A stretch of 64,000 bases of DNA, taken from IMG/VR virus record IMGVR_UViG_3300046171_000182, positions 32,001-96,000 of that record, one strand, 5' to 3'. Origin of the DNA: a virus. Made by a program: the position numbers and the translations under genes. Shown here one piece after another: positions 15,669 to 30,989 of the stretch (position 1 is the stretch's first letter; every line of letters begins with the position of its first letter). Under the pieces are notes generated by a model. It saw only the letters and a program-made list of their open reading frames with translations. It was not told the origin of the DNA and made no database searches.

Positions 15669-15874
15669 CAAACTGGCTAAAAAGACTTTTGTATGACAAG
15701 TACGAAGTCACAATATGGTTTACAGAAGATGGCAAGAAAACTAAAAGTTTCTTTGAATTAACTGAACTAAATAAGATTGACCAAACATCTTTGCGCGGTA
15801 GAGATATGGATGGTCGTAAAATTAATATCAAGACTACCGAGAAATTTGATTATCAAGTGAGGAAAATATACTGA
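15665..15874 (+). CDS. Hypothetical protein
   Basis: Coupled ATGA overlap. Confidence 0.55.
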   Translation: MTNWLKRLLYDKYEVTIWFTEDGKKTKSFFELTELNKIDQTSLRGRDMDGRKINIKTTEKFDYQVRKIY

Positions 15875-16320
15875 TGAGTGATTGGGCTAATGACATTTAT
15901 ATGATGCATAATAAATTTGGCGTCAAAGAATGGTTCGAAAAAAATAAAGATGATAAAGATCTAATGCAGAAATATATTATGTTTCGTATGCTTATGATCG
16001 GTGAAGAATATCAAGAAACTTTATCTGCTATTAATAACTCTGATGCTGAAGAAGTGGTTGATGGTTTGATTGACATGTGCGTCTTTGCTATCGGTACTCT
16101 TGATGTTATGGGAGTAGATGCTAATAAAGCATGGGACAAAGTCTATGAAGCTAATATGGCTAAACAGCCTGGTGTAAAACCGGGTCGACCTAACCGATTT
16201 GGTCTACCAGATCTGCTAAAGCCTAGTAGATGGCAACCACCTGAGCATAAAGGTAACCACGGCGATTTGAATCTAGCTATAGGCACACCGCCGGTAATCG
16301 CTGTCGATGACGGCTGGTAA
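15874..16320 (+). CDS. MazG-like nucleotide pyrophosphohydrolase (candidate dCTPase/dUTPase)
   Basis: EEYQE...EEVVDGLID...ANMAK all-alpha NTP-PPase pattern. Confidence 0.75.
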   Translation: MSDWANDIYMMHNKFGVKEWFEKNKDDKDLMQKYIMFRMLMIGEEYQETLSAINNSDAEEVVDGLIDMCVFAIGTLDVMGVDANKAWDKVYEANMAKQPGVKPGRPNRFGLPDLLKPSRWQPPEHKGNHGDLNLAIGTPPVIAVDDGW

Positions 16321-17741: not shown

Positions 17742-18086
17742 ATGAAAGAATCACTAAAAGTCCTGCAAGAATGTGCAGAAATTCAAGCAAGAAAATCTAA
17801 CGACTATCAGAACGAAAACTCACGTATTCGTCAAGCTGATTATTATCCACGTGGCGTCATGTCAATTATGGAATTGATTAACACAAAGACTATTCGTCTA
17901 TGGTCTGTACTTGAAGCTATGGAGAATGATCCTAACTATGAGCCTAACTTTGAAGGCGTTGAAGACTCCCTCAAAGATTTAATTAACTATTCTTCGTTTG
18001 CTGTCGCATACGCTCGTGGTAAGATTGACGGTCAAGACCCTAATCGCGATTTCTTAAACAGGACCAGAAAAAATGACAAAGTATGA
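17742..18086 (+). CDS. DUF1599 / nucleotide-modification-associated domain protein
   Basis: RKSNDY...K..RL...EDSLKDLINY pattern. Confidence 0.6.
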   Translation: MKESLKVLQECAEIQARKSNDYQNENSRIRQADYYPRGVMSIMELINTKTIRLWSVLEAMENDPNYEPNFEGVEDSLKDLINYSSFAVAYARGKIDGQDPNRDFLNRTRKNDKV

Positions 18087-18276: not shown

Positions 18277-19058
18277 TGTTAAGAGTTATTGCTGGACCAT
18301 GTCAACACGAATCGCTAGAGCAGTCAATGGAGATTGCCAAGCATTGTAAAGATGTATGCGATAAGTATGATATTGAATACGTCTTTAAAGCTAGTTTTGA
18401 TAAGGCAAATAGAACATCTCTTAATGGTGAACGAGGACTAGGTCTGGTGCCAACAGCATATAGTTTTATAGATATTAAACAAGAGATTCCTGGCTTAAAA
18501 ACATTAACAGATGTTCATAGTGTTGAACAAATCAGAACGATTAGAAATCAGTTTAATTCTTGTATTGATGTATTACAGATACCAGCATTCTTATGTAGAC
18601 AAACTGATATAATTAGAGAAGCTTGTCGTACAGATAAGATAGTTAATATTAAGAAAGGCCAGTTCTTGGCACCTTGGGATGTAGCTGGCATTCTAAGTAA
18701 AACAAAAGATGCTAAAGAAGTCTGGATAACAGAAAGAGGATCGAGTTTTGGTTATAATAATCTTGTTGTTGATTTTAATGGTTTGCAGTACATGCTTGAT
18801 AACTATAGCGTTCCGATTGTATTTGATGCAACACACTCGTGCCAGAAACCTGGTGGAAGCGGTGAAAGTTCAGGTGGCAATCGTGCTTGGGTCCCAGGGC
18901 TTACTCGTGCTGCTTCTGCTATGGGTGTATCTAACTTCTTCTTAGAAGTACATCCAGATCCAGATAACGCACCATCCGATGGACCAAATATGTTAAAACT
19001 AGAAGACTTCGATAGAGTTATAGAAAAAATAGTGGAGTGTAATTATGATCGCGGGTAA
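18276..19058 (+). CDS. kdsA: KDO-8-phosphate synthase
   Basis: IAGPC, FKASFDKANRTS, QIPAFLCRQTD, KKGQF, FDATHS, SDG. Confidence 0.93.
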   Translation: MLRVIAGPCQHESLEQSMEIAKHCKDVCDKYDIEYVFKASFDKANRTSLNGERGLGLVPTAYSFIDIKQEIPGLKTLTDVHSVEQIRTIRNQFNSCIDVLQIPAFLCRQTDIIREACRTDKIVNIKKGQFLAPWDVAGILSKTKDAKEVWITERGSSFGYNNLVVDFNGLQYMLDNYSVPIVFDATHSCQKPGGSGESSGGNRAWVPGLTRAASAMGVSNFFLEVHPDPDNAPSDGPNMLKLEDFDRVIEKIVECNYDRG

Positions 19059-19386
19059 AGTTTGGGGTAATACGGAGCTGATAGAAGCAAACGGCGCTCT
19101 AGAGTTTCATAGAATTGAAATGAATAAAGGCGGTGTTTGTTCTAAGCACCTGCATGAGTTTAAATGGAATGGATTCTATGTTGAGTCTGGTCGTATGCTT
19201 ATTCGCGTATGGCAAAAAGATTATGATTTAGTAGACGAAACAATATTAGACCCAGGTGATTATACTAAAGTTAAACCTGGCGTCTATCATCAATTTGAAT
19301 GTTTAGAATCTGGAGTCGCTTTTGAATTGTATTGGGCAGAATTTAATCATAACGACATTAAGAGAGAAACTGTTGGTCATGCATGA
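19045..19386 (+). CDS. Cupin-domain protein (sugar isomerase-like)
   Basis: KVWG, SKHLH..K...F, PGVYHQF. Confidence 0.7.
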   Translation: MIAGKVWGNTELIEANGALEFHRIEMNKGGVCSKHLHEFKWNGFYVESGRMLIRVWQKDYDLVDETILDPGDYTKVKPGVYHQFECLESGVAFELYWAEFNHNDIKRETVGHA

Positions 19387-19964
19387 AAGTAAGTGATGCT
19401 GCAACTCACGTAAAATATTATGCTAGTCATCAAATGATGATTACAAAATTGCAAACCTTTAATGATATAACATATACTGCCGGAGCAGAACAAAGTTTAA
19501 GGATATTGCAATTAAATATGGAAAGGCTTAATTGGTTCCTTGGAGATGTAAGAATACCTAAATTTAATTATACTGTCGACTTTGATAAAAATCAAATAAC
19601 TACTTATTCTGAATACATGTTTGGTACTCAAATACACCCAAGAATTGCATATGAAAATAAAGATGTTATTTATGATAGTATGGTAAACAGCGATCAAACA
19701 TGGTTTTATCAAGAAGGAATAAATACGAAACTAGTCGATTGGCCTCTGCACAAACGTTCTATGTTAATGAGAACTAAAAAAAGTAAAAATTATGGTTTTA
19801 AAGATTACTCATTAGAAAATTTTATTATAAGAGGAACTAAACCATTAGGAAAAGATGAACCACCTTGGAATATTGCATATGTAGATTTAGAAGCTTTTTG
19901 TGAATGTACAAATGATGATCGCAAAAAAGCATTTAAATTTTATGAAGGGGCTATAATTTTATGA
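19383..19964 (+). CDS. Hypothetical protein
   Basis: 193 aa ORF with no confident motif. Confidence 0.5.
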   Translation: MKVSDAATHVKYYASHQMMITKLQTFNDITYTAGAEQSLRILQLNMERLNWFLGDVRIPKFNYTVDFDKNQITTYSEYMFGTQIHPRIAYENKDVIYDSMVNSDQTWFYQEGINTKLVDWPLHKRSMLMRTKKSKNYGFKDYSLENFIIRGTKPLGKDEPPWNIAYVDLEAFCECTNDDRKKAFKFYEGAIIL

Positions 19965-19977
19965 AGGGGGCTATAAC

Positions 19978-20400
19978 ATGAAAGTAGGATTTACAGCTTC
20001 AACTTTTGATTTACTTCATGCAGGACATGTGGCAATGTTGCGTGAGGCAAAATCAGTTTGTGATTATTTAATTTGTGGTTTGCAGGTAGATCCTACATTG
20101 GATAGACCTAGAAAGAATCGACCTGTTCAATCAATTGTAGAACGACAAGCACAATTAGCCGCAATAAAATATGTCGATGAAGTAATTATTTATTGTACAG
20201 AAGAAGAATTATGTGATATAATAAACATGTATCCAATTGACGTAAGGATATTGGGTGAAGAGTATAGAGACAAAGATTTTACTGGTAAGGATGAATGTCG
20301 CAAACGTGGCATTCAACTTTACTTTAATAAACGAGACCATAGGTTCTCGACGTCTGATTTAAGGAAAAGAGTACAGTATGCAAATGACAGCAGTCCGTGA
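19978..20400 (+). CDS. Cytidylyltransferase (TagD/RfaE-like)
   Basis: TFDLLHAGH HIGH motif; C-terminal FSTS..R. Confidence 0.85.
   Translation: MKVGFTASTFDLLHAGHVAMLREAKSVCDYLICGLQVDPTLDRPRKNRPVQSIVERQAQLAAIKYVDEVIIYCTEEELCDIINMYPIDVRILGEEYRDKDFTGKDECRKRGIQLYFNKRDHRFSTSDLRKRVQYANDSSP
20194..20222 (+). promoter_or_regulatory. Internal early/middle-type promoter upstream of the dCMP hydroxymethylase
   Basis: TGTACA-N17-TATAAT. Confidence 0.65.
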
Positions 20401-21061
20401 TATTCGTCAATATTTTATTGATGAACTAAAAGACGAAGCTTTTACAATTGATAAGACCGGCGCTAAGACAATAGAAATGCTTGGCGCATCTTTCATTGCT
20501 GATGAGGCAGCCATATTTGGAACAGTTAGTTATGATTATGTTCAAGAAGAATTAGACTGGTATGATAGCCAGTCTACAAACATTAACGACATTCGTGATA
20601 ATCCACCAAAAGCCTGGGAGTATGCTGCAAATACTCATGGTGAAATTAATTCTAATTACGGACATCTTATTTTTTCAGACAAATATTATAACCAATATGG
20701 CTGCGTGCTGGATGAATTACTAGAAAATCCTGACGGTCGACGTGCTTCCATGATTTACAATAGACCGTCTATTTGGATGGAGTATAATGAAAATGGAAAA
20801 TCGGATTTTATTTGTACTAACAGCGTCACTTACTATATTCGTGATAGTATTCTACATTCTGTAGTTCAGATGCGTTCTAATGATGTGGTGTTTGGATATA
20901 AGAATGATTACGCGTGGCAACGTGAGGTAATGAAAAGATTAGTCAGAGATTATAATGCTCTAAGTACTTACGATACAGGTAATATAATTGAAGAAGGTCA
21001 CATTACTTGGCAAGTACAAAACTTGCACGTCTATGAAAAGCACTTTAACCTTGTCAAGTAA
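20378..21061 (+). CDS. gp42: dCMP hydroxymethylase (T4 gp42-like)
   Basis: DKTGAKTIE, GASFIADE, GEINSNYG, SDFICTN and MRSNDVVFGYKNDYAWQ closely follow T4 gp42; Asp at the cytosine-specificity position (Asn in thymidylate synthases). Confidence 0.88.
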   Translation: MQMTAVRDIRQYFIDELKDEAFTIDKTGAKTIEMLGASFIADEAAIFGTVSYDYVQEELDWYDSQSTNINDIRDNPPKAWEYAANTHGEINSNYGHLIFSDKYYNQYGCVLDELLENPDGRRASMIYNRPSIWMEYNENGKSDFICTNSVTYYIRDSILHSVVQMRSNDVVFGYKNDYAWQREVMKRLVRDYNALSTYDTGNIIEEGHITWQVQNLHVYEKHFNLVK

Positions 21062-21506
21062 GTGGGATCACCGCTATTTAGAGTTAGCGCGCGCGGTTGG
21101 TACCTGGTCTAAGGATCCTTCCACAAGAATAGGAGCTATTGCTGTTGGAATTAAAGGACAGGTATTGGCTCAGGGATATAACGGATTGCCTAGAGGAGTT
21201 TCTGATTCTGATGAAAGATACCAGGATCGAGAGACTAAATACAAATACATTGTTCATGCAGAACAAAATTTAATTTATAATGCAACATGGAATGGTGTCT
21301 CCTTAGATCAATCTACTTTATATGTGACTGGGCTTCCTGTTTGTTCTGAGTGTGCTAAAGGCGTTATTCAAGTTGGAATAAAGAGAGTAGTTATGCCAGC
21401 TAGTGAAGACATAAGGGGATGGGGTGATAAGGCACGTTGGAACGATTCGTGGGAATTGTCTGCTTCTATGTTTAAGGAAGCCAACGTGTTATACGAGTTT
21501 ATATAA
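21051..21506 (+). CDS. cd: dCMP deaminase
   Basis: SKDPST, GYNG, HAE and CSEC zinc motif. Confidence 0.9.
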   Translation: MSSKWDHRYLELARAVGTWSKDPSTRIGAIAVGIKGQVLAQGYNGLPRGVSDSDERYQDRETKYKYIVHAEQNLIYNATWNGVSLDQSTLYVTGLPVCSECAKGVIQVGIKRVVMPASEDIRGWGDKARWNDSWELSASMFKEANVLYEFI

Positions 21507-22069
21507 TGGATATGGGATTCAACTCGAGTGTGGAGTTTGTCAAGCTACCAGTAGGATTTAACTTTTGGACTTTTGATAATATACTGTCAGGAGATTTGCC
21601 AAATCAGTTACTGGAAGACAGCAATCAATTCAACTTTTTTAAATTAGATCAGCGCAGGACATCAAGACCTGACCGTATCTATATGCATGAGTATAATATC
21701 GATAGTTTTAAAACTATCGTGGATTTATTAACCAGTAATGGCACCAAAAAGTATTTTAGTGATATTACAGGTATTGATTACACTCGACAACAGGCTAGAA
21801 TTGAACTATGCAAAGACGCAACTGGAAGTTGGTTAGAGCAACATTGCGATGATCCAGCAAAAACTATGACTTGCCAGATATATCTGAGCAACGCCCCTTC
21901 AAGCACAAAAATTGGAACCTTTGGAAGCAAAGCAAAATTTAATTGTGGTTGGGTCTTTTCCAATACTGGGACTGAACCGCATGGATTACCTCCATTGACA
22001 TTTGATAGAACCAGTATTATCTTAAATTATGTAAGTGAAAACTGGCGTGATAGAGAAGTTTTAATATGA
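21506..22069 (+). CDS. 2OG-Fe(II) oxygenase-like protein
   Basis: HCD...QIYL...H...R pattern. Confidence 0.65.
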   Translation: MDMGFNSSVEFVKLPVGFNFWTFDNILSGDLPNQLLEDSNQFNFFKLDQRRTSRPDRIYMHEYNIDSFKTIVDLLTSNGTKKYFSDITGIDYTRQQARIELCKDATGSWLEQHCDDPAKTMTCQIYLSNAPSSTKIGTFGSKAKFNCGWVFSNTGTEPHGLPPLTFDRTSIILNYVSENWRDREVLI

Positions 22070-22170
22070 GTTTATATAATGGATGATGAAGTATTATTGC
22101 TACTAGCTTTGATGACAGTTATCTTTGGCGGTACGTTAATTATTAATTGGATATTTTGGGGAATAGCCGG

Positions 22171-23127
22171 ATGAACGTAATTACAAATCCTATATCAAAT
22201 ATTCCGAAGAATGAGAAGTCGCACGTTCATGGTTGGTCGCAGTTGTGGCGTGATCAACTTGGTGCCTTTATTGATCACAAATGTACTCCACGAATAACAA
22301 AAGCAGATGTTGTTTATATAGATCATGGTGCTAACTTTGGCGGTAGTTTAAATTTATTTGGCGGAGCTAATAAAGAAGTTTATGATAGAATCAATCTTGT
22401 AATGTCATGCGAAAACATTGTCTCGTTAGATTGGGATATGCCTGATTATGGGGCAATGTTAAAGAAAAGACTTTCAGCTGAGACAACCTATAAAGATATT
22501 ACAGAAAAGTGGTGTGATTCTATTTCTAAACGAATTAAAAGTATTACGTCTCTTAAGCAGAAAGATTTAAAAACAGATGGTGTTATTTTTGGAGACTCAC
22601 ATACTATCGCTTTTAGTGATGCAGGGGATCGCGTGTATAGGACTGACGGTAAGACTCTTTTTGGTAGTATACGTAAGGGACTTCGACAAGACATACAAGA
22701 ACCATTGGGCCGACTTACCATATCTCTTGGCTCTATTGACATTAGGCATCACATTCTGCGTCACCCTGGCTTTTCTCTTAAATATAACATCAAAGAATAT
22801 GTAAGAGAAGGTAATCAGATGGCTGACGATGTATGGTTTGCTGCTCCGGTTCCTGTAGAGTTTGAAGGAAGACGTATACCTAAATCAGGATTCTACAAGA
22901 AGACTCCATTCTATGGCTCATGGAAAGAGCGTTGGGATCTTACAAACGAATTTATTGAAATGCTTTACGAAGAATCTAAAGGTAAAGTTGTTATGCCGCC
23001 AAAAGAATGGTATACAATGGATCCTGAAAAATACGCAAATACTTATATGGAACACGGTTCTAGTTTTCATATAGCGCCACCATATTATAGACGCAACGAT
23101 TGGGGAGTATCACCTCTTGGCACATAA
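22171..23127 (+). CDS. Hypothetical protein with SGNH/GDSL-like C-terminal domain
   Basis: FGDSHT block, GSID, late SFH. Confidence 0.5.
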   Translation: MNVITNPISNIPKNEKSHVHGWSQLWRDQLGAFIDHKCTPRITKADVVYIDHGANFGGSLNLFGGANKEVYDRINLVMSCENIVSLDWDMPDYGAMLKKRLSAETTYKDITEKWCDSISKRIKSITSLKQKDLKTDGVIFGDSHTIAFSDAGDRVYRTDGKTLFGSIRKGLRQDIQEPLGRLTISLGSIDIRHHILRHPGFSLKYNIKEYVREGNQMADDVWFAAPVPVEFEGRRIPKSGFYKKTPFYGSWKERWDLTNEFIEMLYEESKGKVVMPPKEWYTMDPEKYANTYMEHGSSFHIAPPYYRRNDWGVSPLGT

Positions 23128-24001
23128 CAATCATGTCATAGACGGAATCAATAAAGATATTAATCCATTTTATGGAGATCCAAAAGAGTATTATTTAGAA
23201 CTAGCAAAAGATTGGGAGGATCCATATGGAATACCTAATATTACTGAGCATAGCGGGATTCGTGTTGTTCGCGACGATTCTCTTGTTGGTAGTAAGGTTA
23301 GGGGCGGCGATTGCCTCATTAGTAGTTTGGGCTCTCACATTGACACTATCGTTTATGTTCAACCTCGCACTGGTCTTGCCGGTGTTAGTATACTTGACGT
23401 CGCCAAACGACATGGAAAAGATGTCATGCTCTTCATGCCCTCAAGTAAACGCATCAGCGATCACCAAGCCTGCTGTATTGAACGGGGAGCACGTACTAGT
23501 TTTCATAGAATAGCAGCTATGCCTAATTTAAATCTAATTGCAAAGAAATGGGCAGATGAAAGAAAGAATGCTTTCTTTGTACCGTTAGGCTTAAAACATG
23601 AAATGGTAACAGCAGGCATTGTAAAGGCTGCTTCTAAGATAAGAGAACCTGAAGAAGTATACACTGCCACGTCCACGGGCGTGCTCACACGGGGGCTGCA
23701 GATTGCTTGGCCTAATGCCAAGTTTACTTCCGTCTGCGTGTCTCGTAATATGAAAGCTGGTGAATTAGGTATTGCAGAAGCCGTATCAGAGCCATTGGCG
23801 TTTACGGCTTCAGAGAAAAAAGACAATCTTCCGCCATTCCCGACTATAGATACCTACGATGGTAAGGTATGGAAATATATTCCAAAGAATACAGGACGTG
23901 ATATTTTATTCTGGAACGTAGGCAAAGAACCGATATTGCAAAATTCAGGTTTACCGGATACCATAGATTCATATAGAGATTGGGAAAAGAATGTGGCTTA
24001 A
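23117..24001 (+). CDS. PLP-dependent fold-type II enzyme
   Basis: VRDD...GSKVR (PLP lysine), TSTG loop, YDGK and LFWNVG. Confidence 0.7.
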   Translation: MAHNNHVIDGINKDINPFYGDPKEYYLELAKDWEDPYGIPNITEHSGIRVVRDDSLVGSKVRGGDCLISSLGSHIDTIVYVQPRTGLAGVSILDVAKRHGKDVMLFMPSSKRISDHQACCIERGARTSFHRIAAMPNLNLIAKKWADERKNAFFVPLGLKHEMVTAGIVKAASKIREPEEVYTATSTGVLTRGLQIAWPNAKFTSVCVSRNMKAGELGIAEAVSEPLAFTASEKKDNLPPFPTIDTYDGKVWKYIPKNTGRDILFWNVGKEPILQNSGLPDTIDSYRDWEKNVA

Positions 24002-25007
24002 CGAAGAAGCAATTGATGTTCTCGTAAATTATTATTATCCGAAGGCCGGATGGTTGCAAGACAATGTAAACTGGGGACCTTTAGATTATGAAGGTCCTGA
24101 AGCAAATGAAATTGTTAATGATCCGCTTCTGCAAAAGATTGACATCTATGATTGTAAAACAAGAAACGCTGCAGGCTTCTCAAACGTATTACAAGATCTG
24201 AGGTTCGGATCTAAAACTCCTAAATGGAGATGGCAGAAAGAAGATAGACGTAAGATCTCAGCATCTAATGATAATATTAGTTGGTCAATTGAAACGTGGC
24301 TATACACATTTCTCTGTCATCGAATTACTGGGTCAGGTGCTTCATTTGAAAACGATCATGGTTATCGTAATAATATAATTCAGCATTGGGGTAAGCACAG
24401 AGACATTAAAGATATGGCAGAGGATTTGGTAGAGACTAAAGCCTCTGGAAAACCAATGTTTACATCTATCGGCAATCAACCTCCGGCTCCTAAGAAAGGA
24501 GTTAGTAATGTTGACTTTATGGTAAATGAATTGCCAGAAGTTATCAATAGATTTACAGATTTTCTTCTCTTAAAAAGAAGAGGCCACAAAGAAATTGTAG
24601 ATCATCTAAATGAACATAATAAAAAAGCAGGTCATCGTAAATTTAATTTTCAGTATGCTGCTTTCTCTATGGATTGCTCTGACTATTTTCCTGAACACGC
24701 TGATGTGGATTCTCATACATATTTAGGAAACAACGCAGTACGATGTATGAAAAAATTATCTAAAGGTTGGAAAGATGACGACTTTATGGATCTACTAAGA
24801 GAAAAAACTGGCGGTAAACCAAAAGACCTCGAAGATGTTATGTGTGATTTTGTTCGGTTTGGACAGAATTATGTGCCACGAGGTAATGGAACATTCGATC
24901 ATATTCCTTCAACATTAGCTAATGCATCTGGATGGGAATCTGGATGGGAACAAAGACAAGGCCATCCGCCTATAAAAGGTTTACAATTAGATGAATTTAT
25001 GGTATAA
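23991..25007 (+). CDS. aGPT-pyrophosphorylase / amino-acid:DNA transferase-like protein
   Basis: HRITGSG, F.YAAFSMD, LGNNAVRC and LEDVMCDFVRF resemble the HhH-like motifs of phage base-hypermodification transferases. Confidence 0.6.
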   Translation: MWLNEEAIDVLVNYYYPKAGWLQDNVNWGPLDYEGPEANEIVNDPLLQKIDIYDCKTRNAAGFSNVLQDLRFGSKTPKWRWQKEDRRKISASNDNISWSIETWLYTFLCHRITGSGASFENDHGYRNNIIQHWGKHRDIKDMAEDLVETKASGKPMFTSIGNQPPAPKKGVSNVDFMVNELPEVINRFTDFLLLKRRGHKEIVDHLNEHNKKAGHRKFNFQYAAFSMDCSDYFPEHADVDSHTYLGNNAVRCMKKLSKGWKDDDFMDLLREKTGGKPKDLEDVMCDFVRFGQNYVPRGNGTFDHIPSTLANASGWESGWEQRQGHPPIKGLQLDEFMV

Positions 25008-25008
25008 T
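24980..25008 (+). promoter_or_regulatory. Early/middle-type promoter
   Basis: TTTACA-N17-TATAAT. Confidence 0.7.
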
Positions 25009-25013
25009 AACAT

Positions 25014-25865
25014 ATGTTAAAAATTACAATTATAGGCCACGGTTTTGTTGGTAAAGCAATCGACTACGCATTTCAAGATGATGTAGAAAAACAAATTATA
25101 GATCCTAAGTATGACGTTCATTTACACGATGTAAGATTATCTTCTGATGTAACGTTTGTTTGCGTTCCAACGCCAATGCATAAAGATGGCCAATGCGATG
25201 TAAGTATTCTTCGAGATGTTTTACATAAAATTGCTCAACGAAGAAGTGGACTCATAGTTGTCAAATCTACAGTACCGCCTGATCAAATAGAAAATTTATT
25301 TCGTGGTTCTGCTAAACATAGAATGGTTTATAATCCAGAATTCTTGACAGAAAAAAATGCAAATGAAGATATTATAAATCCGTTCGTACATATTTTTGGT
25401 GGCGAGAACGAGGCTACTAAAAAGCTGGAAAGTTTTTATAAAGAATATAGTATATGTAAGCCATGTCCAATATCACATATGTCAGCAACAGATGCTAGCT
25501 TTGTAAAGTATGGAATCAATACTTTCCTAGCAACTAAGCTAACATTCTTTAATGAACTTTATGATACAATAAAAGACTTTGGAGGTAATTATGGTCGTAT
25601 CGCAAACGCAATTGGTACTGATCCAAGAATTGGGCACTCCCATACTCGTGTCCCTGGTTTTGACGGCAAGCGTGGTTTTGGCGGTGCTTGTTTTCCAAAA
25701 GATGTTTCCGCCTTCGTAAACTTTACAACTCATACTCCTTTACTAGAATATGTTATGAATCGTAACAATCAATATCGATCCGAGTATGAAAAAGACGAAA
25801 GAGAAATAGCACAGAACATAGAGTATAATATGACTGGTGAAATAGCACACGTGAATGAACGATGA
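25014..25865 (+). CDS. UDP-glucose/GDP-mannose dehydrogenase family protein (short form)
   Basis: GHGFVG, CVPTP, KSTVPP, NPEFL, GFGGACFPKD. Confidence 0.88.
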   Translation: MLKITIIGHGFVGKAIDYAFQDDVEKQIIDPKYDVHLHDVRLSSDVTFVCVPTPMHKDGQCDVSILRDVLHKIAQRRSGLIVVKSTVPPDQIENLFRGSAKHRMVYNPEFLTEKNANEDIINPFVHIFGGENEATKKLESFYKEYSICKPCPISHMSATDASFVKYGINTFLATKLTFFNELYDTIKDFGGNYGRIANAIGTDPRIGHSHTRVPGFDGKRGFGGACFPKDVSAFVNFTTHTPLLEYVMNRNNQYRSEYEKDEREIAQNIEYNMTGEIAHVNER

Positions 25866-26794
25866 AAATATTCATAACAGGAATATCAGGGTTTATCGGA
25901 TTCCATTTAGCTAGAGAGCTTAAAGCTTACGGCCATGATATCTTGGGTTGTGATAATTACAACGGCATGTATAATCCATCTCTAAAAATATCTCGATACA
26001 GGATTCTAGAGATGTCAGAGATTCCTGTTAAAAATGCTGATATATGCTCGTTGACTCAATCAGAGGTTGAAGACTGCGATGTTATTGTACACTTAGCGGC
26101 GTGGGCTGGTGTTAGACATTCATTGGAAATGCAAAATGTTTATACAAAAAATAATATAATTGGTACACAAAACATTATAGATATTGCTGAGACGCTAAAC
26201 ATTCCTGTGGTTTATGCTTCTTCATCAAGTGTGTACGCTGGTCAAAATCCACCATTCATGGAAGATATGAATTTTACACATCATCTAAATCCTTATGCTT
26301 GGAGTAAATATGTTAATGAATGTCAATTCAAACACAGTAATGTACCTTCGTCAATCGGCTTTAGATTTTTTACAGTGTATGGTCCTTATGGACGGCCTGA
26401 CATGGCACTTCATGGATTTACGAACAAGATTATAAAAGATGAACCAATAGAAGTTTTTGGTCACGGTGATATGTCACGTGATTTTACATATGTACAAGAC
26501 ATCGTAAATGGTGTACAATTGTTAATAGATAAAGTTTCTAAAATAGATGATCATCAAATCTATAATATTGGTAGTGGCGAATCAGTTCCGCTTATGAGTT
26601 TTGTAAGACTCATAGAAGAAAATCTAGATCGCAAAGCAAAGATTAATTATGTTGATATACATCCAGCGGATATTCGACATACTTTAGCTGATATAACAGA
26701 AATAAAAAGATTAGGCTATCGGCCGATGACTTCTATAGAAACCGGTATTCGCAGCTTTATCAGTTGGTATAAAGATTATTATAAAAAAAATTAG
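25862..26794 (+). CDS. NAD-dependent epimerase (UDP-glucuronate 4-epimerase-like)
   Basis: TGISGFIG, HLAAWAGVRHS, YAWSK, RFFTVYGPYGRPDMA. Confidence 0.88.
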   Translation: MKIFITGISGFIGFHLARELKAYGHDILGCDNYNGMYNPSLKISRYRILEMSEIPVKNADICSLTQSEVEDCDVIVHLAAWAGVRHSLEMQNVYTKNNIIGTQNIIDIAETLNIPVVYASSSSVYAGQNPPFMEDMNFTHHLNPYAWSKYVNECQFKHSNVPSSIGFRFFTVYGPYGRPDMALHGFTNKIIKDEPIEVFGHGDMSRDFTYVQDIVNGVQLLIDKVSKIDDHQIYNIGSGESVPLMSFVRLIEENLDRKAKINYVDIHPADIRHTLADITEIKRLGYRPMTSIETGIRSFISWYKDYYKKN

Positions 26795-26803
26795 GAGACG
26801 CAT

Positions 26804-27850
26804 ATGTCAGTAATGGACAAACTCAAAAAGAACTCTAAGTTAAAAAACACGGAGGTTCTTTCTGAGTCAAAATTCTTTAATGAAAAAGATATGACTCCGA
26901 CCGATTCGCCAATGATTAACGTGGCGTTATCGGGATCGGTAGATGGAGGTTTAGCCTCTGGCCTTACTGTTCTTGCAGGCCCGTCAAAACATTTTAAGAC
27001 TTCCTTTGCTTTGATTATGGCTGCAGCCTATTTGAAAAAGCATAAAGACGCTGTTATGCTATTTTATGATTCAGAGTTTGGCTCTCCTCAGGCATACTTC
27101 GAGCAATTTGAAGTTGATACTTCTCGAGTTCTTCATACACCAATTACAAATGTAGAAGAACTAAAATTTGATATGATTGGTCAATTGGAAGCGTTAGACC
27201 GAGGTGATAAAGTAATTGTTGTTATTGATTCTATCGGTAACCTTGCTTCAAAGAAAGAGATGGAAGACGCTCTAAATGAAAAATCAGTTGCTGATATGTC
27301 AAGAGCGAAGGCACTAAAAGGTCTATTCCGTATGGCAACACCTTATCTTGCCATGAAGAATATTCCTATGCTAGCAGTCAATCACACATATCAAGAGATC
27401 GGTTTGTTCCCTAAAGCTATCGTCTCTGGCGGTACTGGCATTTATTATTCAGCTGATAATATCTGGATCCTTGGTCGCCAGCAGGATAAGAAAGGTACAG
27501 AGATCCAAGGGTATCATTTTGTAATCAATGTAGAGAAATCACGTTATGTTAAAGAAAAGTCTAAGATTCCTATTACTGTTTCCTGGGACGGTGGTGTTCG
27601 CGGTTACTCTGGGCTTCTTGACGTGGCTCTTGCTGGTGGGTACGTCACTAAGCCTTCAAATGGCTGGTATGCAACGGTTGATATGGAAAGTGGTGAAGTT
27701 GGCCCAAAGGTGCGGCATGATACAACTTTAGAAAAAGAGTTTTGGGATCCTATTTTTGCTGAGACTAATTTTAAAGAGTTTATTAAAAAACAATATACGA
27801 TTGGGCACAGAGAACAAGTATCTATGGATGAGATTGTAGAGGAAGCATGA
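26804..27850 (+). CDS. uvsX: RecA-like recombinase UvsX
   Basis: AGPSKHFKT, YDSEFG, DSIGNLASKKE, SGGTG. Confidence 0.95.
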   Translation: MSVMDKLKKNSKLKNTEVLSESKFFNEKDMTPTDSPMINVALSGSVDGGLASGLTVLAGPSKHFKTSFALIMAAAYLKKHKDAVMLFYDSEFGSPQAYFEQFEVDTSRVLHTPITNVEELKFDMIGQLEALDRGDKVIVVIDSIGNLASKKEMEDALNEKSVADMSRAKALKGLFRMATPYLAMKNIPMLAVNHTYQEIGLFPKAIVSGGTGIYYSADNIWILGRQQDKKGTEIQGYHFVINVEKSRYVKEKSKIPITVSWDGGVRGYSGLLDVALAGGYVTKPSNGWYATVDMESGEVGPKVRHDTTLEKEFWDPIFAETNFKEFIKKQYTIGHREQVSMDEIVEEA

Positions 27851-28975: not shown

Positions 28976-30339
28976 ACACAAACATTGAACAGACTATATT
29001 GCGAAACCTTCTGGTGGATGATAAATTCATGCGGAAGGTTTTGCCTTTTATAAAGAATGAATATTTTGAAGGTGTCTATCGCCAACTGTTTAAACAAGTC
29101 GGACTATATGTTCAGAAATATAATAAACTACCAACACAAGAATCTTTTAAAATTGAATTAGATGATGCTGATAATTTTAACGATGAGCAATATCGCCATG
29201 CCGTAGAAATCCTACCTGAGATATTTAAGACAGAAGAAATTGATAATGAATGGCTGATTGACAAGACTGAGAAGTGGTGTCAAGATAGAGCATTACATAA
29301 TGCTGTAATGGAATCTATCAGTATTATAGATGGTAAACATCAAAGTCTTTCAAAGAATGCGTTACCAGAGATCCTCTCTGATGCTCTGGCAGTCAACTTT
29401 GACGCAAATATCGGTCATGACTATCTTGGTAACTTTAATGCTCGATATGAGTTTTATCATAAAGAGGAAGAACGTGTAGCATTTGATTTAGAATATTTTA
29501 ATAAAATTACAAAAGGCGGTTTGCCAAATAAGACTTTAAACATTTGCCTTGCCGGTACGGGTGTCGGTAAATCGTTGTTTATGTGTCACCAAGCTTCGGC
29601 TGCTCTTACAGATCAAAAGAATGTTCTTTACATTACAATGGAAATGGCAGAAGAACGTATCGCAGAGCGTATTGATGCCAACCTTCTTAATATTCCAATC
29701 GATCAACTAGATAAACTTTCAAGAGATATGTTCTCGCAGAAAGTATCTCAGCTTGCTAAACAAACAAACGGTCGATTAATTGTAAAAGAATATCCTACTG
29801 GCTCTGCACACTCTGGTCACTTCCGTGCATTACTTAACGAACTAAAACTAAAAAAGAAATTTGTGCCAGATATTATCTTCATTGATTATCTTAATATCTG
29901 TGCATCTTCACGTATGAAAGCAATGGGAGGATCAATCAATTCCTATACGTACATTAAAGCAATTGCTGAAGAGCTACGTGGTCTTGCGGTCGAGTTTGAC
30001 GTACCGGTCGTCTCTGCAACGCAAACGACTCGTAGTGGTTATTCTAACTCAGATATTGGGCTTGAAGATACGTCCGAGTCTTTTGGATTACCCGCAACCG
30101 CCGACTTAATGTTTGCACTTATCTCTTCTGAAGAGCTTGAGAAAGAAGGCAAGATTATGGTCAAGCAATTAAAGAATAGATATAACGATCCAACTTATAA
30201 AAAGAAATTTGTAGTAGGCGTCGATAGATCTAAGATGAGATTGTACGACGTTGATGAAACTAGTCAGACTCTTAGTGATGATACTCCGGTCTTTGATCGG
30301 GCAGAAATGAACAAGCGATTTGAGGACTTTAAACTTTGA
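28972..30339 (+). CDS. gp41: Replicative helicase gp41 (DnaB-like)
   Basis: AGTGVGKS, MEMAEE, IDYLNI, SESFGLP, KQLKNRY. Confidence 0.95.
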   Translation: MNTNIEQTILRNLLVDDKFMRKVLPFIKNEYFEGVYRQLFKQVGLYVQKYNKLPTQESFKIELDDADNFNDEQYRHAVEILPEIFKTEEIDNEWLIDKTEKWCQDRALHNAVMESISIIDGKHQSLSKNALPEILSDALAVNFDANIGHDYLGNFNARYEFYHKEEERVAFDLEYFNKITKGGLPNKTLNICLAGTGVGKSLFMCHQASAALTDQKNVLYITMEMAEERIAERIDANLLNIPIDQLDKLSRDMFSQKVSQLAKQTNGRLIVKEYPTGSAHSGHFRALLNELKLKKKFVPDIIFIDYLNICASSRMKAMGGSINSYTYIKAIAEELRGLAVEFDVPVVSATQTTRSGYSNSDIGLEDTSESFGLPATADLMFALISSEELEKEGKIMVKQLKNRYNDPTYKKKFVVGVDRSKMRLYDVDETSQTLSDDTPVFDRAEMNKRFEDFKL

Positions 30340-30989
30340 AGGTAAGATTAATTGGTTACACTCAACCACCAGAAGATATCGTCGGTCTCGACGATCTACA
30401 AGACATCGTCGCGTATTGTGCCCGTGTCTCCAACCCATCCAACCAAATCAACTCAGAGACATCGGGAAAACTCCTCGACTACCTCATCAAGCACAAACAC
30501 TGGTCACCGTTCGAAATGTGCTCGGCCACGCTCGAAGTCGAAACGACAAGAGATATTGCGAGACAGTTCCTCAGGCACAGGTCGTTTTCCTTTCAAGAGT
30601 TTAGCCAGCGTTATGCTGATATTCGTTCTTTTAATAATTCTTTTGTGATACGTGAGGCAAGACTTCAAGACGAAAAGAATCGGCAAAATAGCGTAGCTAA
30701 TACAGATAAGAAGCTTTCTATGGAATGGGACGCTAAACAAAATAAAGTAATAAAAGAAGCTAAAGCTGCTTATAATTGGGCAATAGAAAATGGAATCGCA
30801 AAAGAACAAGCAAGAGCAGTGTTGCCAGAAGGTAACACCGTTAGTAAGCTCTATGTTAATGGCACCATTCGTAGCTGGATACATTATATCGAGCTCCGTT
30901 CTGCAAATGGGACACAACTTGAACATATGGAATTGGCAAGAGAAGTCGGACAAACAATAGCAAAGATTTTTCCATATTTTGCAGAGTGA
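30336..30989 (+). CDS. thyX: Flavin-dependent thymidylate synthase ThyX
   Basis: HWSPFE and RHRSFSFQEFSQRY ThyX motif. Confidence 0.93.
   Translation: MKVRLIGYTQPPEDIVGLDDLQDIVAYCARVSNPSNQINSETSGKLLDYLIKHKHWSPFEMCSATLEVETTRDIARQFLRHRSFSFQEFSQRYADIRSFNNSFVIREARLQDEKNRQNSVANTDKKLSMEWDAKQNKVIKEAKAAYNWAIENGIAKEQARAVLPEGNTVSKLYVNGTIRSWIHYIELRSANGTQLEHMELAREVGQTIAKIFPYFAE

What the first reader, a model, noticed from the sequence alone, without database searches (positions are those of the whole stretch)
20378..25007. Candidate new cytosine hypermodification pathway: 5hmC synthase beside amino-acid:DNA-transferase and PLP genes
Seen: the thymidylate-synthase-family ORF follows T4 gp42 closely and has Asp (RSNDVVFGYKND) where thymidylate synthases have Asn. 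ThyX elsewhere covers dTMP supply. Downstream lie a 2OG oxygenase, an SGNH-like protein, a fold-II PLP enzyme and an aGPT-PPase-like protein. I recognise no T4-type glucosyltransferase in the window. Known: aGPT-PPase/AADT enzymes, with PLP enzymes in some cases, build thymine hypermodifications on 5hmU in phages such as ViI, M6 and PhiW-14. Inference: similar chemistry may be applied here to 5hmC, giving an amine- or acyl-substituted cytosine.
Basis: partly seen in the sequence, partly recalled or inferred. Interest (0 to 1): 0.88.

Follow-up and report, generated by a model that had tools for sequence, protein, structure and literature searches.

The report
Phage cassette for hypermodified cytosine DNA
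A marine T4-like phage carries, where T4 keeps its DNA glucosyltransferase, a conserved gene set that probably turns hydroxymethylcytosine in its DNA into an amino-acid-derived base, a kind of DNA modification so far worked out only for thymine.

Summary
ORF 20378-21061 is a T4-type dCMP hydroxymethylase. It is 52% identical to T4 gp42, with Asp at both diagnostic active-site positions, so it is not an RB69-type 5-hydroxycytosine synthase. Downstream lie a two-domain protein with an SGNH C-terminal domain (22171-23127), a fold-II PLP enzyme (23117-24001) and an all-helical protein (23991-25007). The PLP enzyme falls in the same PHROG as the proven DNA decarboxylase M6 gp52. The nearest named structural neighbours of the helical protein's model are amino acid:DNA transferases.

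These four genes stay together in 54 of 56 related metagenomic phage loci with enough flank, in several gene orders and two different backbones. The hydroxymethylase is Asp-type in 115 of 115 loci that carry it. In seven protein clusters the SGNH protein and the transferase-like protein are fused. In this phage the cassette fills the slot between gene 42 and uvsX, where T4 has beta-glucosyltransferase.

Not part of the core: the 2OG oxygenase (0 of 56 loci) and the flanking sugar-nucleotide genes (variable). No 5-hmdU-type DNA kinase was found, so the activating step is unexplained; the SGNH protein is my candidate for it.

No chemistry is shown. I read this as a new variant of the known hypermodification pathways. 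My searches of the held papers found no description of it.

The parts
15874..16320 (+). MazG/HisE-like NTP pyrophosphohydrolase. Candidate dCTPase, a functional stand-in for T4 gp56. This role is inferred, and the gene is not shown to belong to the cassette.
   Evidence: Pfam PRA-PH, E 5.9e-10, 39.9 bits against a cut-off of 21.3. No T4 gp56 homologue in the record.
17742..18086 (+). 114-aa DUF1599-like protein ('nucleotide modification associated domain 1'). It lies directly upstream of the hydroxymethylase in most related loci. In this window five accessory genes are inserted between them.
   Evidence: 25 of 28 family members give a weak PF07659 match (best E 9.2e-05, below the cut-off). Present in 21 of 30 and 20 of 26 flanked loci. 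phrog_18404 'hydrolase', 6.7e-12.
20378..21061 (+). T4-type dCMP hydroxymethylase (5hmdCMP synthase)
   Evidence: 52% identical to T4 gp42 and 25% to RB69 gp48. Asp at both the ThyA-D169 and ThyA-N177 columns. The catalytic Cys aligns.
20988..21506 (+). dCMP deaminase. A frequent but not constant neighbour; probably supplies dUMP to ThyX.
   Evidence: PF00383, 5.3e-18; phrog_174, 1.3e-40. Present in 27 of 30 and 16 of 26 loci.
21506..22069 (+). 2OG-Fe(II) oxygenase-fold protein. An insertion peculiar to this genome, not part of the core cassette.
   Evidence: Atlas structure TM 0.82-0.85 to 2OG-FeII_Oxy_3 clusters. 0 of 30 and 0 of 26 loci. No phage tblastn hit.
22171..23127 (+). 'p326': an unassigned alpha/beta N-domain (residues 1-130) plus an SGNH/GDSL-fold C-domain with invariant G-D-S-H. 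Candidate activating or acyl-transfer enzyme acting on 5hmC in DNA.
   Evidence: AF2 pLDDT 83.7. VIA Z 12.2 to 4rsh over residues 134-310. phrog_13881, 5.7e-91. Invariant G141 D142 S143 H144 and H300. Fused to the AADT-like domain in 7 clusters.
23117..24001 (+). Fold-type-II PLP enzyme of the M6 gp52 / ViI gp226 kind. Predicted decarboxylase of a DNA-tethered amino acid.
   Evidence: phrog_7093, 3.8e-34. M6 gp52 matches the same PHROG at 2.2e-159. K60 aligns with M6 gp52 K36. Shared C-terminal motif by BLASTP, E 5e-6.
23991..25007 (+). AADT/aGPT-Pplase-like helical (HhH-glycosylase-fold) protein. Predicted transferase that attaches an amino acid or amine at the C5 methylene of cytosine in DNA.
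   Evidence: AF2 pLDDT 87.2. BFVD Foldseek E 1.7e-13 to 3.8e-12, TM 0.74-0.81, one of the three annotated 'Amino acid:DNA transferase domain'. PDB 8z2m (PaMx11 gp46) Z 8.6, tied with AGOG at 8.7.
25014..26794 (+). Short UDP-glucose-dehydrogenase-like gene and an SDR epimerase/dehydratase gene. Accessory neighbours, probably not part of the cassette.
   Evidence: Pfam and NCBIfam hits. Present in 12 and 7 of 30 close loci, and in 0 and 1 of 26 distant loci.
26804..27850 (+). UvsX recombinase. Marks the downstream border of the T4 beta-gt slot.
   Evidence: PF21134 T4_UVSX_C, 7.2e-13. T4 gene order 42, b-gt, segA, uvsX, 40, 41.
30336..30989 (+). ThyX. It makes dTMP, so thymine is presumably kept as thymine.
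   Evidence: PF02511, 2.6e-44.

Best explanation
This is a conserved cassette for post-replicative hypermodification of 5-hydroxymethylcytosine.

- Step 1, well supported: the gp42-type enzyme makes 5hmdCMP. A MazG-like pyrophosphatase (15874-16320) may supply dCMP. 5hmC then enters the DNA in place of C, while ThyX keeps thymine normal.
- Step 2, inferred: the two-domain SGNH protein acts on the 5-CH2OH group in DNA. It takes the place that the P-loop 5-hmdU DNA kinase holds in the thymine pathways. My guess is that it installs an acyl leaving group instead of a phosphate.
- Step 3, inferred from fold and context: the AADT-like helical protein flips the base out and replaces the leaving group with an amino acid or amine.
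- Step 4, inferred from family: the PLP enzyme, a relative of M6 gp52 and ViI gp226, decarboxylates the tethered amino acid. This leaves an aminoalkyl- or aminoalkoxy-methyl cytosine.

The 2OG oxygenase and the sugar-nucleotide genes are passengers.
For: The hydroxymethylase is T4-type.
- It is 52% identical to gp42.
- The motif MRSND..G..ND is shared with T4. RB69 gp48 has Asn at the D169 column and M6 dUMP hydroxymethylase has Asn at the N177 column. The rule that D169N marks 5hoC synthases comes from PMC13326640, section 28.

The PLP enzyme is of the DNA-decarboxylase kind.
- It is in the same PHROG as M6 gp52, and the Schiff-base Lys aligns.
- M6 gp52 and ViI gp226 are shown to be DNA-acting decarboxylases in PMC8989533 (passages).

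The helical protein is AADT-like by structure.
- The nearest named structural neighbours are AADT, Pplase1 and HMUDK_hel proteins and PaMx11 gp46.
- A second, remote paralogue sits beside it in other lineages (hhalign probability 79%, E 1.6e-5). This echoes the paralogous aGPT-Pplase pairs described in PMC8989533.

The genes are linked.
- Hydroxymethylase, p326 and PLP are all present in 30 of 30 close loci and 24 of 26 distant loci that have at least 4 kb on both sides of the AADT-like gene. They occur in at least five gene orders.
- The linkage holds both next to uvsX/gp41 and away from it; in the distant set uvsX is nearby in only 1 of 26 loci.
- All 115 hydroxymethylase genes found in these loci are Asp/Asp type (55 of 55 and 60 of 60).

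There are natural fusions.
- 7 of the 14 long family members examined are fusions of a p326-like domain and an AADT-like domain.
- Aeromonas phage 44RR has a T4-type gp42 (47% identical) and, according to PMC2993671, no glucosyltransferase. It carries a p326-like domain fused to a C-terminal region with a weak HMUDK_hel match.

Position: in this phage the cassette fills the T4 beta-gt slot between gene 42 and uvsX.
Against: - No chemistry of any kind is available.
- 23991 does not match Pfam ADDT. Only 1 of 35 distant relatives touches it, at E 0.00099. hhalign against M6 gp51 finds nothing.
- In the PDB the fold match to gp46 (Z 8.6) is no better than the match to AGOG glycosylases (Z 8.7). 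The tool itself warns that Z under about 13 can be trivial for helical proteins.
- No 5-hmdU-type DNA kinase was found. PF18748 gives nothing in the 135-kb record, which is 77% complete. M6 gp54 is found in 0 of 26 distant loci. The known AADT substrate therefore has no evident source.
- The SGNH protein's role is a guess. By my reading of the alignment, the block-III Asn of SGNH hydrolases is replaced (G-S-I-D).
- No homologue of T4 gp56 or gp1 was found by tblastn. The route from 5hmdCMP to 5hmdCTP is therefore unshown.
- 2 of the 26 flanked distant loci, and 11 of all 80, carry the AADT-like gene without the other three.
- The loci are related phages, so part of the linkage is inheritance.
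Confidence: 0.6

Rival explanations
1. The SGNH protein is the real group-transfer enzyme. It forms an acyl-enzyme and esterifies the 5-CH2OH of 5hmC with an acyl or aminoacyl group. The AADT-like helical protein serves only as its DNA-binding, base-flipping module, as HMUDK_hel does for the P-loop kinases. The product would be an O-acyl- or O-aminoacyl-5hmC, which the PLP enzyme then reworks.
For: - Fusions of a p326-like domain with the helical domain have the same layout as kinase plus HMUDK_hel.
- The G-D-S-H motif and a C-terminal His are invariant.
- SGNH-fold O-acetyltransferases (PatB, OatA) are among the structural matches, at Z 9.7.
- No kinase was found.
Against: - A decarboxylase of the M6 gp52 kind needs a free carboxylate, which an aminoacyl ester lacks.
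- The helical family has many invariant polar residues (His, Asp, Arg, Cys, Glu), which suggests catalysis rather than mere binding.
- No acyl donor is indicated.
Confidence: 0.15
2. The cassette glycosylates 5hmC. The flanking sugar-nucleotide genes (KDO8P/DAHP-synthase family, cupin, cytidylyltransferase-like, UDP-glucose dehydrogenase-like, SDR epimerase) make a donor sugar, and one of the unknown proteins is a new DNA glycosyltransferase.
For: - In RB69 the sugar-activation genes lie between the polymerase gene and the TS homologue, and the glycosyltransferase lies between the TS homologue and uvsX (PMC13326640 sections 25 and 27). The layout here is similar.
- The p326 N-domain is an unassigned alpha/beta domain.
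Against: - The sugar genes are variable. UGDH is in 12 of 30 close loci and SDR, KdsA-like, cupin and CTase are in 7 to 10 of 30. In the distant loci that keep the cassette, three of the four tested are in 0 of 26 and SDR in 1 of 26; cupin was not counted there.
- No GT-A or GT-B fold was found in the cassette. hhalign of p326 against T4 beta-gt aligns only 12 residues, at probability 1%.
- rfaE- and UGDH-type genes are described as common LPS-related auxiliary genes of marine myophages in PMC7029224 (passage).
Confidence: 0.1
3. The modification ends up on thymine positions. The neighbouring dCMP deaminase converts 5hmdCMP to 5hmdUMP, 5hmU is incorporated, and the AADT-like and PLP enzymes act as in M6 or ViI.
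For: - The dCMP deaminase sits inside the cassette in many loci (27 of 30 and 16 of 26).
- All characterised AADT and PLP pairs act on 5hmU derivatives (PMC8989533).
Against: - ThyX is present, so dTMP is made.
- The deaminase is absent from 3 of 30 and 10 of 26 loci that keep the cassette.
- T4 itself carries both gp42 and a dCMP deaminase (recalled).
- No 5-hmdU DNA kinase was found.
Confidence: 0.07
4. The genes do not modify DNA. They act on free nucleotides or make a small molecule, for example a hydroxymethylcytosine-derived nucleoside metabolite of the kind begun by the CMP hydroxymethylase MilA.
For: - MilA-type enzymes share the Asp/Asp active-site signature (PMC13326640 section 24).
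- PLP and SGNH enzymes are common in small-molecule pathways.
Against: - The hydroxymethylase is closest to the T4 gp42 proteins.
- The cassette sits in the replication module, at the beta-gt slot.
- The helical protein has a DNA-glycosylase-type fold.
- The PLP enzyme's nearest characterised relative works on DNA.
Confidence: 0.08

Closest known systems
Thymidine hypermodification clusters of phages M6, ViI, PaMx11 and PhiW-14: dUMP hydroxymethylase, 5-HMUDK P-loop DNA kinase, AADT (aGPT-Pplase), and a PLP decarboxylase or other tailoring enzymes
   Same: - A thymidylate-synthase homologue supplies a 5-hydroxymethylpyrimidine handle.
- A helical HhH-fold transferase-like protein is present, and in some lineages a paralogous pair.
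- The PLP enzyme is of the same PHROG as M6 gp52.
- Natural fusions occur between the 'first-step' enzyme and the helical domain.
   Different: - The hydroxymethylase is dCMP-specific by its signature, so the base is cytosine.
- No 5-HMUDK kinase is present. A two-domain SGNH protein is the constant fourth partner instead.
- The helical protein is outside Pfam ADDT by sequence.
T4 gp42 and beta-glucosyltransferase (glucosyl-5hmC)
   Same: - The same kind of dCMP hydroxymethylase (52% identical).
- The same genomic slot between gene 42 and uvsX in a T4-like replication module.
- Post-replicative decoration of 5hmC is the expected logic.
   Different: - No glucosyltransferase homologue.
- The slot holds the SGNH, PLP and AADT-like genes.
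- No gp56, gp1 or beta-gt homologue was found by tblastn in the 135-kb record.
RB69 / DLP3 arabinosyl-5-hydroxycytosine pathway (PMC13326640)
   Same: - A T4-like phage in which a TS homologue and the modification genes lie between the polymerase gene and uvsX.
- Sugar-nucleotide genes lie nearby.
   Different: - The RB69-type enzyme has Asn at the ThyA-D169 column and makes 5hoC. The enzyme here keeps Asp, like T4.
- No GT-B transferases are present here.
Phage C5-methyltransferase/TET clusters with a P-loop kinase and aG/PT-PPlase (Burke et al. 2021, PMC8256090)
   Same: That paper raised the idea that 5hmC could be activated and then further modified by an aGPT-Pplase-type enzyme, for some metavirome contigs.
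   Different: - There, 5hmC is made after replication by a methyltransferase plus TET, at specific sites, and a P-loop kinase is present.
- Here, 5hmC is made before replication by a gp42-type enzyme, and no such kinase is found.
- The paper's contig tables are in supplements that I could not open.
Aeromonas phage 44RR2.8t / 31 / 25 ORF233c (795 aa, hypothetical protein)
   Same: - The N-terminal 334 aa are homologous to p326 (phrog_13881, 1.2e-111), with the G-D-S-H motif.
- The phage has a T4-type gp42 and, according to PMC2993671, no glucosyltransferase.
- The C-terminal part gives a weak HMUDK_hel match.
   Different: - It is a single fused protein.
- No PLP homologue was found in these phages (tblastn).
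- Its C-terminal domain shows no detectable sequence similarity to the 23991 family.

Membership tests
T4-type dCMP hydroxymethylase (gp42) | Thymidylate-synthase fold and family match | tested here: met
   PF00303, E 4.7e-14, 52.6 bits against a cut-off of 24.3. 52% identity to T4 gp42 over 222 aa.
T4-type dCMP hydroxymethylase (gp42) | Catalytic Cys, and Asp in place of ThyA Asn177 (dCMP rather than dUMP) | tested here: met
   DFICTN aligns with T4 DFMCTN. GYKND aligns with T4 GFRND, whereas M6 dUMP hydroxymethylase has Asn there.
T4-type dCMP hydroxymethylase (gp42) | Asp kept at the ThyA D169 column. Asn there marks 5hoC synthases (PMC13326640). | tested here: met
   RSND here and in T4; RSQN in RB69 gp48. 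The rule is read in section 28.
T4-type dCMP hydroxymethylase (gp42) | Makes 5hmdCMP from dCMP and methylene-tetrahydrofolate | not testable with these tools
   Needs an enzyme assay.
Amino acid:DNA transferase (AADT / aGPT-Pplase, Pfam PF18724) | Match to the family HMM | tested here: not met
   No Pfam hit at E <= 0.01. The six-frame search of the record hits only the clamp loader, spuriously. 1 of 35 distant relatives matches, at E 0.00099. M6 gp51, used as a control, scores 1.4e-46.
Amino acid:DNA transferase (AADT / aGPT-Pplase, Pfam PF18724) | HhH-glycosylase-like helical fold like PaMx11 gp46 | tested here: met
   8z2m_A at Z 8.6, rmsd 3.9, 206 aa, tied with AGOG 7olb at Z 8.7. BFVD neighbours annotated AADT, Pplase1 or HMUDK_hel, with the best at E 1.7e-13 and TM 0.76-0.81.
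Amino acid:DNA transferase (AADT / aGPT-Pplase, Pfam PF18724) | Works with a 5-HMUDK P-loop DNA kinase that phosphorylates the hydroxymethyl group | tested here: not met
   PF18748 has no match at E <= 1 in the 135-kb record, which is 77% complete. M6 gp54 is found in 0 of 26 distant loci, and tblastn with it finds no match in the own record.
Amino acid:DNA transferase (AADT / aGPT-Pplase, Pfam PF18724) | Clusters with a pyrimidine hydroxymethylase and tailoring enzymes | tested here: met
   54 of 56 flanked loci.
Amino acid:DNA transferase (AADT / aGPT-Pplase, Pfam PF18724) | Transfers an amino acid or amine to the C5 methylene in DNA | not testable with these tools
   Needs biochemistry.
M6 gp52 / ViI gp226-type PLP-dependent DNA decarboxylase (phrog_7093) | Family HMM match | tested here: met
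   phrog_7093, 3.8e-34, residues 45-270 against profile positions 15-279 of 279. M6 gp52 scores 2.2e-159.
M6 gp52 / ViI gp226-type PLP-dependent DNA decarboxylase (phrog_7093) | Schiff-base lysine (M6 gp52 K36) | tested here: met
   K60 is in an invariant column together with M6 gp52 K36. K36 is named in PMC8989533.
M6 gp52 / ViI gp226-type PLP-dependent DNA decarboxylase (phrog_7093) | Pfam PALP above the gathering score | tested here: not met
   15.8 bits against a cut-off of 35. M6 gp52 itself reaches 39.5 bits.
SGNH/GDSL hydrolase superfamily (C-domain of 22171-23127) | SGNH fold | tested here: met
   Z 12.2 to 9 for more than 40 SGNH chains over residues 133-310. Foldseek finds 8 hits at E <= 0.001, all SGNH esterases.
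SGNH/GDSL hydrolase superfamily (C-domain of 22171-23127) | Block I G-D-S serine and block V histidine | tested here: inconclusive
   G141 D142 S143 H144 and H300 are invariant in 33 sequences. I could not superpose them on a known triad, because no coordinates were available to me.
SGNH/GDSL hydrolase superfamily (C-domain of 22171-23127) | Block III G-x-N-D asparagine | tested here: inconclusive
   The likely equivalent reads G187 S188 I189 D190. The assignment is by eye only.
T4 beta-glucosyltransferase (N-domain of 22171-23127, a lead from another reader) | Detectable homology to T4 b-gt | tested here: not met
   hhalign aligns 12 residues (the LNLFGG stretch), probability 1%, E 0.057. phmmer against PDB sequences finds no b-gt. 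tblastn with T4 b-gt finds nothing in the record.
2OG-Fe(II) oxygenase (21506-22069) | Double-stranded beta-helix fold of the 2OG-FeII_Oxy_3 kind | tested here: met
   The Atlas's own model gives TM 0.82-0.85 to clusters carrying PF13640. There is no direct Pfam hit. The H-x-D...H motif is read by eye only.

The most novel reading that the evidence does not exclude
A widespread, kinase-independent route turns 5hmC in the DNA of abundant aquatic T4-like phages into an aminoalkyl-type cytosine. An SGNH-fold enzyme, not a P-loop DNA kinase, activates the hydroxymethyl group, using an acyl instead of a phosphoryl leaving group. A new branch of the aGPT-Pplase fold then performs the substitution. 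That would be the first amino-acid-derived cytosine hypermodification and a new activation chemistry on DNA.
Probability: 0.3. Interest if true: 0.9.

Novelty: new variant of a known kind. Interest (0 to 1): 0.8.

Why it matters
- Amino-acid-derived hypermodified bases have been worked out only for thymine. For cytosine, the known phage decorations are sugars, methyl or hydroxymethyl groups, a carbamoyl group and carboxymethyl derivatives. A cytosine counterpart would add a new natural DNA base.
- The enzymes would act on 5hmC in duplex DNA, which is of practical interest for 5hmC labelling and sequencing.
- It would also raise the question of which host defences aquatic bacteria use against T4-like phages.
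- The cassette is common. A pattern scan of IMG/VR found at least 542 stretches encoding relatives. Such phages may therefore be under-recovered or mis-called by sequencing methods that are sensitive to modified bases.
- The cassette also suggests a function for the long-unexplained ORF233c of the cultured Aeromonas phages 44RR, 31 and 25. These phages make 5hmC but have no glucosyltransferase.

Tried and rejected
- Megablast of 18000-27000 and tblastn of 23991 and 21506 against 50,697 phage records found no match.
- Sequence searches of PDB chains with A1, p326, the PLP enzyme and g17742 gave nothing significant.
- hhalign of the AADT-like family against M6 gp51 gave nothing. Against the C-terminal part of 44RR ORF233c it also gave nothing.
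- The weak PF18724 hit in the record falls in the gp44 clamp loader and is spurious.
- The BGT-like reading of the p326 N-domain was not supported. An Atlas feature search of residues 1-132 gave no usable hit. The N-domain remains unassigned.
- Complex prediction of p326 with the AADT-like protein returned 'no answer', score 0.00. This is no evidence either way.
- The P-loop protein at 28149-28571 was considered as the missing kinase. It matches AAA_18 and APS_kinase and phrog_10255 'kinase'. I rejected it as a core member because it is present in only 7 of 30 close loci, and my tables list no match to it in the distant loci.
- I looked for pelagimyophage hallmarks, peptide deformylase and S21. 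Neither is in the record. The host is unknown. The nearest cultured polymerase is that of Phage C48C1, at 56.5%.
- g17742 has no names or Pfam domains among its 729 homologues.
- Literature: searches found no paper describing this cassette. Iyer et al. 2013, the source of the aGPT-Pplase and DUF1599 names, is recalled and was not read.

Full report
WHAT IS THERE. The window is part of a 135-kb viral record that CheckV rates 77% complete. It carries a T4-like replication module in this order:
- UvsW, gp46/47-like proteins, gp45, gp44, gp62 and RegA;
- a family-B DNA polymerase at 13158-15668;
- UvsX at 26804-27850, a DnaB-like gp41 at 28972-30339 and ThyX at 30336-30989.

The nearest cultured polymerase is that of 'Phage C48C1' (56.5%), followed by cyanomyoviruses at about 49%. 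Between the polymerase and UvsX, all on the + strand, lie:
- a MazG/PRA-PH-like pyrophosphatase (15874-16320);
- a primase-like protein (16307-17254);
- a 114-aa DUF1599-like protein (17742-18086);
- a DAHP/KDO8P-synthase-family protein, a cupin, an unknown protein and a cytidylyltransferase-like protein;
- the stretch of the finding itself.

THE HYDROXYMETHYLASE. ORF 20378-21061 is a thymidylate-synthase-family protein. Its best phage matches are the gp42 proteins of T4-like phages, at 52-55% identity across 1249 matching records. It is 52% identical to T4 gp42 over 222 residues.

A 2026 paper shows that some gp42-like enzymes (RB69 gp48, DLP3 gp80) make 5-hydroxy-dCMP rather than 5-hydroxymethyl-dCMP. 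It proposes Asn at the column of E. coli ThyA Asp169 as their signature, while Asp at the Asn177 column marks dCMP as substrate (PMC13326640, sections 24 and 28). In my alignment the window protein and T4 gp42 both read M-R-S-N-D...N-D. RB69 gp48 reads M-R-S-Q-N at the first site. M6 dUMP hydroxymethylase has Asn at the second site. The enzyme is therefore a T4-type 5hmdCMP synthase by every feature I could test. ThyX elsewhere in the window means dTMP is still made.

THE THREE DOWNSTREAM PARTNERS.

(a) 23991-25007. This protein has no Pfam, PHROG or NCBIfam match and no hit in 50,697 phage records. It has 302 metagenomic homologues. With an alignment of 33 of them, AlphaFold2 gives a confident all-helical model (pLDDT 87.2, pTM 0.86).
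- Against predicted viral structures, the three best matches are uncultured-phage proteins at E 1.7e-13 to 3.8e-12, TM 0.74-0.81 and 28-29% identity. UniProt annotates one of them as 'Amino acid:DNA transferase domain-containing'. The next named matches are Pplase1 proteins and '5-hmdU DNA kinase helical domain' proteins.
- Against solved structures, Foldseek finds nothing at E <= 0.001.
- The exhaustive aligner ranks the 5-PmdU glycinyltransferase gp46 of PaMx11 (8z2m: Z 8.6, rmsd 3.9, 206 residues) level with archaeal AGOG 8-oxoguanine glycosylases (Z 8.7) and DUF2419 (Z 8.2). Other HhH glycosylases follow.
- The fold claim therefore holds, but sequence membership in Pfam ADDT does not. hhalign against M6 gp51 is empty.
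- It is best described as a separate, remote branch of the aGPT-Pplase/HhH fold. The branch is small: 140 clusters at E <= 0.001 among 1.84 billion representatives.

(b) 23117-24001. This protein scores below threshold on Pfam PALP but matches phrog_7093 at 3.8e-34.
- M6 gp52 is the archetype of that PHROG (2.2e-159). It was shown experimentally to decarboxylate a glycine tethered to DNA, as ViI gp226 does with serine (PMC8989533, passages).
- Lys60 of the window protein aligns with M6 gp52 Lys36, the predicted Schiff-base lysine. The two share a C-terminal P-F-P...Y-D-x-K-x-W-K...F-W-N-V/I-G motif.

(c) 22171-23127 ('p326'). The ORF opens at a TTG at 22147. It matches phrog_13881, of unknown function, and has 318 homologues.
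- Its model (pLDDT 83.7) has a C-terminal domain, residues 133-310, that matches dozens of SGNH/GDSL esterases and O-acetyltransferases at Z 12.2 to 9. G-D-S-H and a C-terminal His are invariant.
- The N-terminal 130 residues form a small alpha/beta domain that I could not assign.
- Another reader of this scan suggested a likeness to T4 beta-glucosyltransferase. That did not hold up.

LINKAGE. This is the strongest evidence. I fetched two sets of 80 IMG/VR loci and mapped the window's proteins on them by tblastn. Set 1 used the close family as query, with AADT-like identity of 63-99%. Set 2 used 35 distant members, about 30% identical to the window protein. Set 1 was scored at E <= 1e-5 and at least 50% query cover. 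Set 2 was scored at E <= 1e-4 and at least 40% cover. I counted only loci with at least 4 kb on both sides of the AADT-like gene.
- Set 1: 30 loci qualified. The hydroxymethylase, p326 and the PLP enzyme are each present in 30 of 30.
- Set 2: 26 loci qualified, and 24 have all three. The other two, and 11 of the 80 loci overall, have the AADT-like gene alone. In the one I examined (L159) it sits beside an HhH-GPD protein.
- The four genes occur in at least five orders, for example TS-dCD-p326-PLP-AADT, TS-AADT-PLP-p326 and TS-p326-AADT-PLP.
- In set 1 they lie next to uvsX/gp41. In set 2 uvsX is nearby in only 1 of 26.
- Every hydroxymethylase found in these loci has Asp at both diagnostic positions (55 of 55 and 60 of 60).
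- The DUF1599-like gene precedes the hydroxymethylase in 21 of 30 and 20 of 26 loci.

By contrast:
- The 2OG oxygenase is in none of the 56 loci.
- UGDH, SDR, the KdsA-like gene, the cupin, the cytidylyltransferase and the P-loop protein are each in 7 to 12 of 30 close loci.
- In the 26 distant loci, three of the four sugar genes counted are absent and SDR is in 1. The cupin was not counted there, and the P-loop protein gave no match.

Of the 14 longest members of the AADT-like family, seven are fusions with a p326-like domain at the N-terminus and the AADT-like domain at the C-terminus. In some distant loci a second, remote paralogue of the AADT-like protein sits between it and the PLP gene (L097; hhalign probability 79%, E 1.6e-5). 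This recalls the paralogous aGPT-Pplase pairs of the thymine systems.

SYNTENY. T4 reads 43, imm, 42, beta-gt, segA, uvsX, 40, 41. RB69 places its arabinosyltransferase in the same slot and its sugar-activation genes between 43 and the TS homologue. Here the slot between the gp42 homologue and uvsX holds p326, the PLP enzyme and the AADT-like protein. This fits a post-replicative 5hmC-decorating function.

THE MISSING STEP. Known AADTs displace a phosphate that a P-loop 5-hmdU DNA kinase has put on the hydroxymethyl group (PMC8989533; PMC11472151 abstract).
- No such kinase is found in the record (PF18748; tblastn with M6 gp54) or in the distant loci (0 of 26).
- The one constant extra partner is p326. 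Its fusion to the helical domain mirrors the kinase plus HMUDK_hel architecture.
- I therefore propose that p326 performs the activating step, possibly by O-acylation. This is inference only.
- A variant, in which p326 is itself the transferase and the helical protein only presents the base, is listed as the first rival.
- I also found no homologue of T4 gp56 or gp1. The MazG-like protein at 15874-16320 is a candidate dCTPase. The dNMP kinase step is open, and the record is incomplete.

A CULTURED HANDLE. p326 homologues occur in 43 phage records: 38 Aeromonas, 2 'Stenotrophomonas' IME13 and 3 Tenacibaculum.
- In Aeromonas phage 44RR the homologue is the N-terminal 334 residues of the 795-aa ORF233c. 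Its C-terminal part gives a weak HMUDK_hel match, E 0.0036.
- 44RR has a T4-type gp42 (47% identical, Asp/Asp).
- According to Petrov et al. 2010, 44RR, 31 and 25 have genes 42 and 56 but no glucosyltransferase genes (PMC2993671, passages).
- No cultured phage in the collection has the AADT-like domain of this family.

LITERATURE. Seven full-text searches found no description of this cassette. The nearest statements are these:
- Burke et al. 2021 note a P-loop kinase and aG/PT-PPlase beside C5-methyltransferase/TET genes in some contigs. They suggest an analogous phosphorylation of TET-made 5hmC (PMC8256090, passages).
[quoted passage not shown] It treats rfaE and UDP-glucose dehydrogenase genes as LPS-related auxiliary genes (PMC7029224, passages).
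- The MetaGPA paper links Asp177-type thymidylate synthases with modified-cytosine phage DNA in environmental samples (PMC8670742, passages).

Supplements were closed, so contig lists in these papers could already include such loci.

VERDICT. There are three corrections:
- The 2OG oxygenase and the sugar genes are not part of the core.
- The 'AADT' is a remote structural relative, not a Pfam family member.
- The kinase is absent and the SGNH protein is the fourth core component.

The function is inferred throughout, and nothing here shows the chemical product.

Noticed in passing
window 21506-22069: A 2OG-Fe(II) oxygenase-fold gene is wedged between the dCMP deaminase and p326 in this genome only. 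It is absent from all 56 flanked related loci, including loci 97-98% identical in the neighbouring genes. It has no hit in 50,697 phage records.
   Followed up: partly
L001 5995-8382 (Aeromonas phage 44RR2.8t ORF233c): A 795-aa hypothetical protein of cultured Aeromonas T4-like phages. It consists of a p326-like SGNH module, a Lys-rich linker and a C-terminal region with a weak HMUDK_hel match. It sits next to a sodium:solute symporter gene. It is a candidate 5hmC-modifying enzyme in phages known to lack glucosyltransferases.
   Followed up: partly
L002 (Erythrobacter phage vB_EliS_R6L gp1) and L003 5986-6696 (Microcystis phage Mae-JY30): Homologues of the PLP enzyme (phrog_7093) are annotated 'DNA modification methylase'. 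In R6L the homologue is the C-terminal part of a large gp1 that wraps the record's origin. In Mae-JY30 it follows two ParB/sulfiredoxin genes. This recalls the ParB-dependent T-dioxygenase hypermodification clusters of PMC13229309.
   Followed up: no
L159 6448-10292, and 10 similar loci (L149, L153-L157, L162, L165-L167): A sub-lineage carries the AADT-like gene without a detectable hydroxymethylase, PLP enzyme or p326. In L159 it is preceded by an HhH-GPD protein and followed by unknown proteins of 186 and 334 aa. Methyltransferase/glycosyltransferase fusion genes lie nearby.
   Followed up: partly
L097 9589-10014, 11109-12140 and 14081-14401: In the distant version of the cassette a UDG-superfamily-like protein of 141 aa (E 0.0011) takes the place of the dCMP deaminase. 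A remote paralogue of the AADT-like protein (343 aa) lies between the AADT-like and PLP genes. A DUF3310 protein follows p326.
   Followed up: partly
window 8134-9174: A fusion of a glutaredoxin domain with a phosphomannomutase (HAD) domain, inserted between the gp44 and gp62 clamp-loader genes.
   Followed up: no
window 25014-25865: The UDP-glucose-dehydrogenase-like protein is only 283 aa. Its Pfam matches cover the end of the NAD-binding domain and the central domain. No C-terminal UDP-binding domain was reported.
   Followed up: no
window 28149-28857: A 140-aa P-loop 'kinase' (phrog_10255; weak APS-kinase and AAA_18 matches) overlaps a 100-aa HIGH-motif nucleotidyltransferase-like ORF. The pair is present only in the closest relatives: 7 and 6 of 30 loci.
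   Followed up: partly
window 18276-20400: A DAHP/KDO8P-synthase-family gene, a cupin (WbuC-like, weak), an unknown 193-aa ORF and an RfaE-domain-II-like nucleotidyltransferase are inserted between the DUF1599-like gene and the hydroxymethylase. In most related loci those two genes are adjacent.
   Followed up: partly
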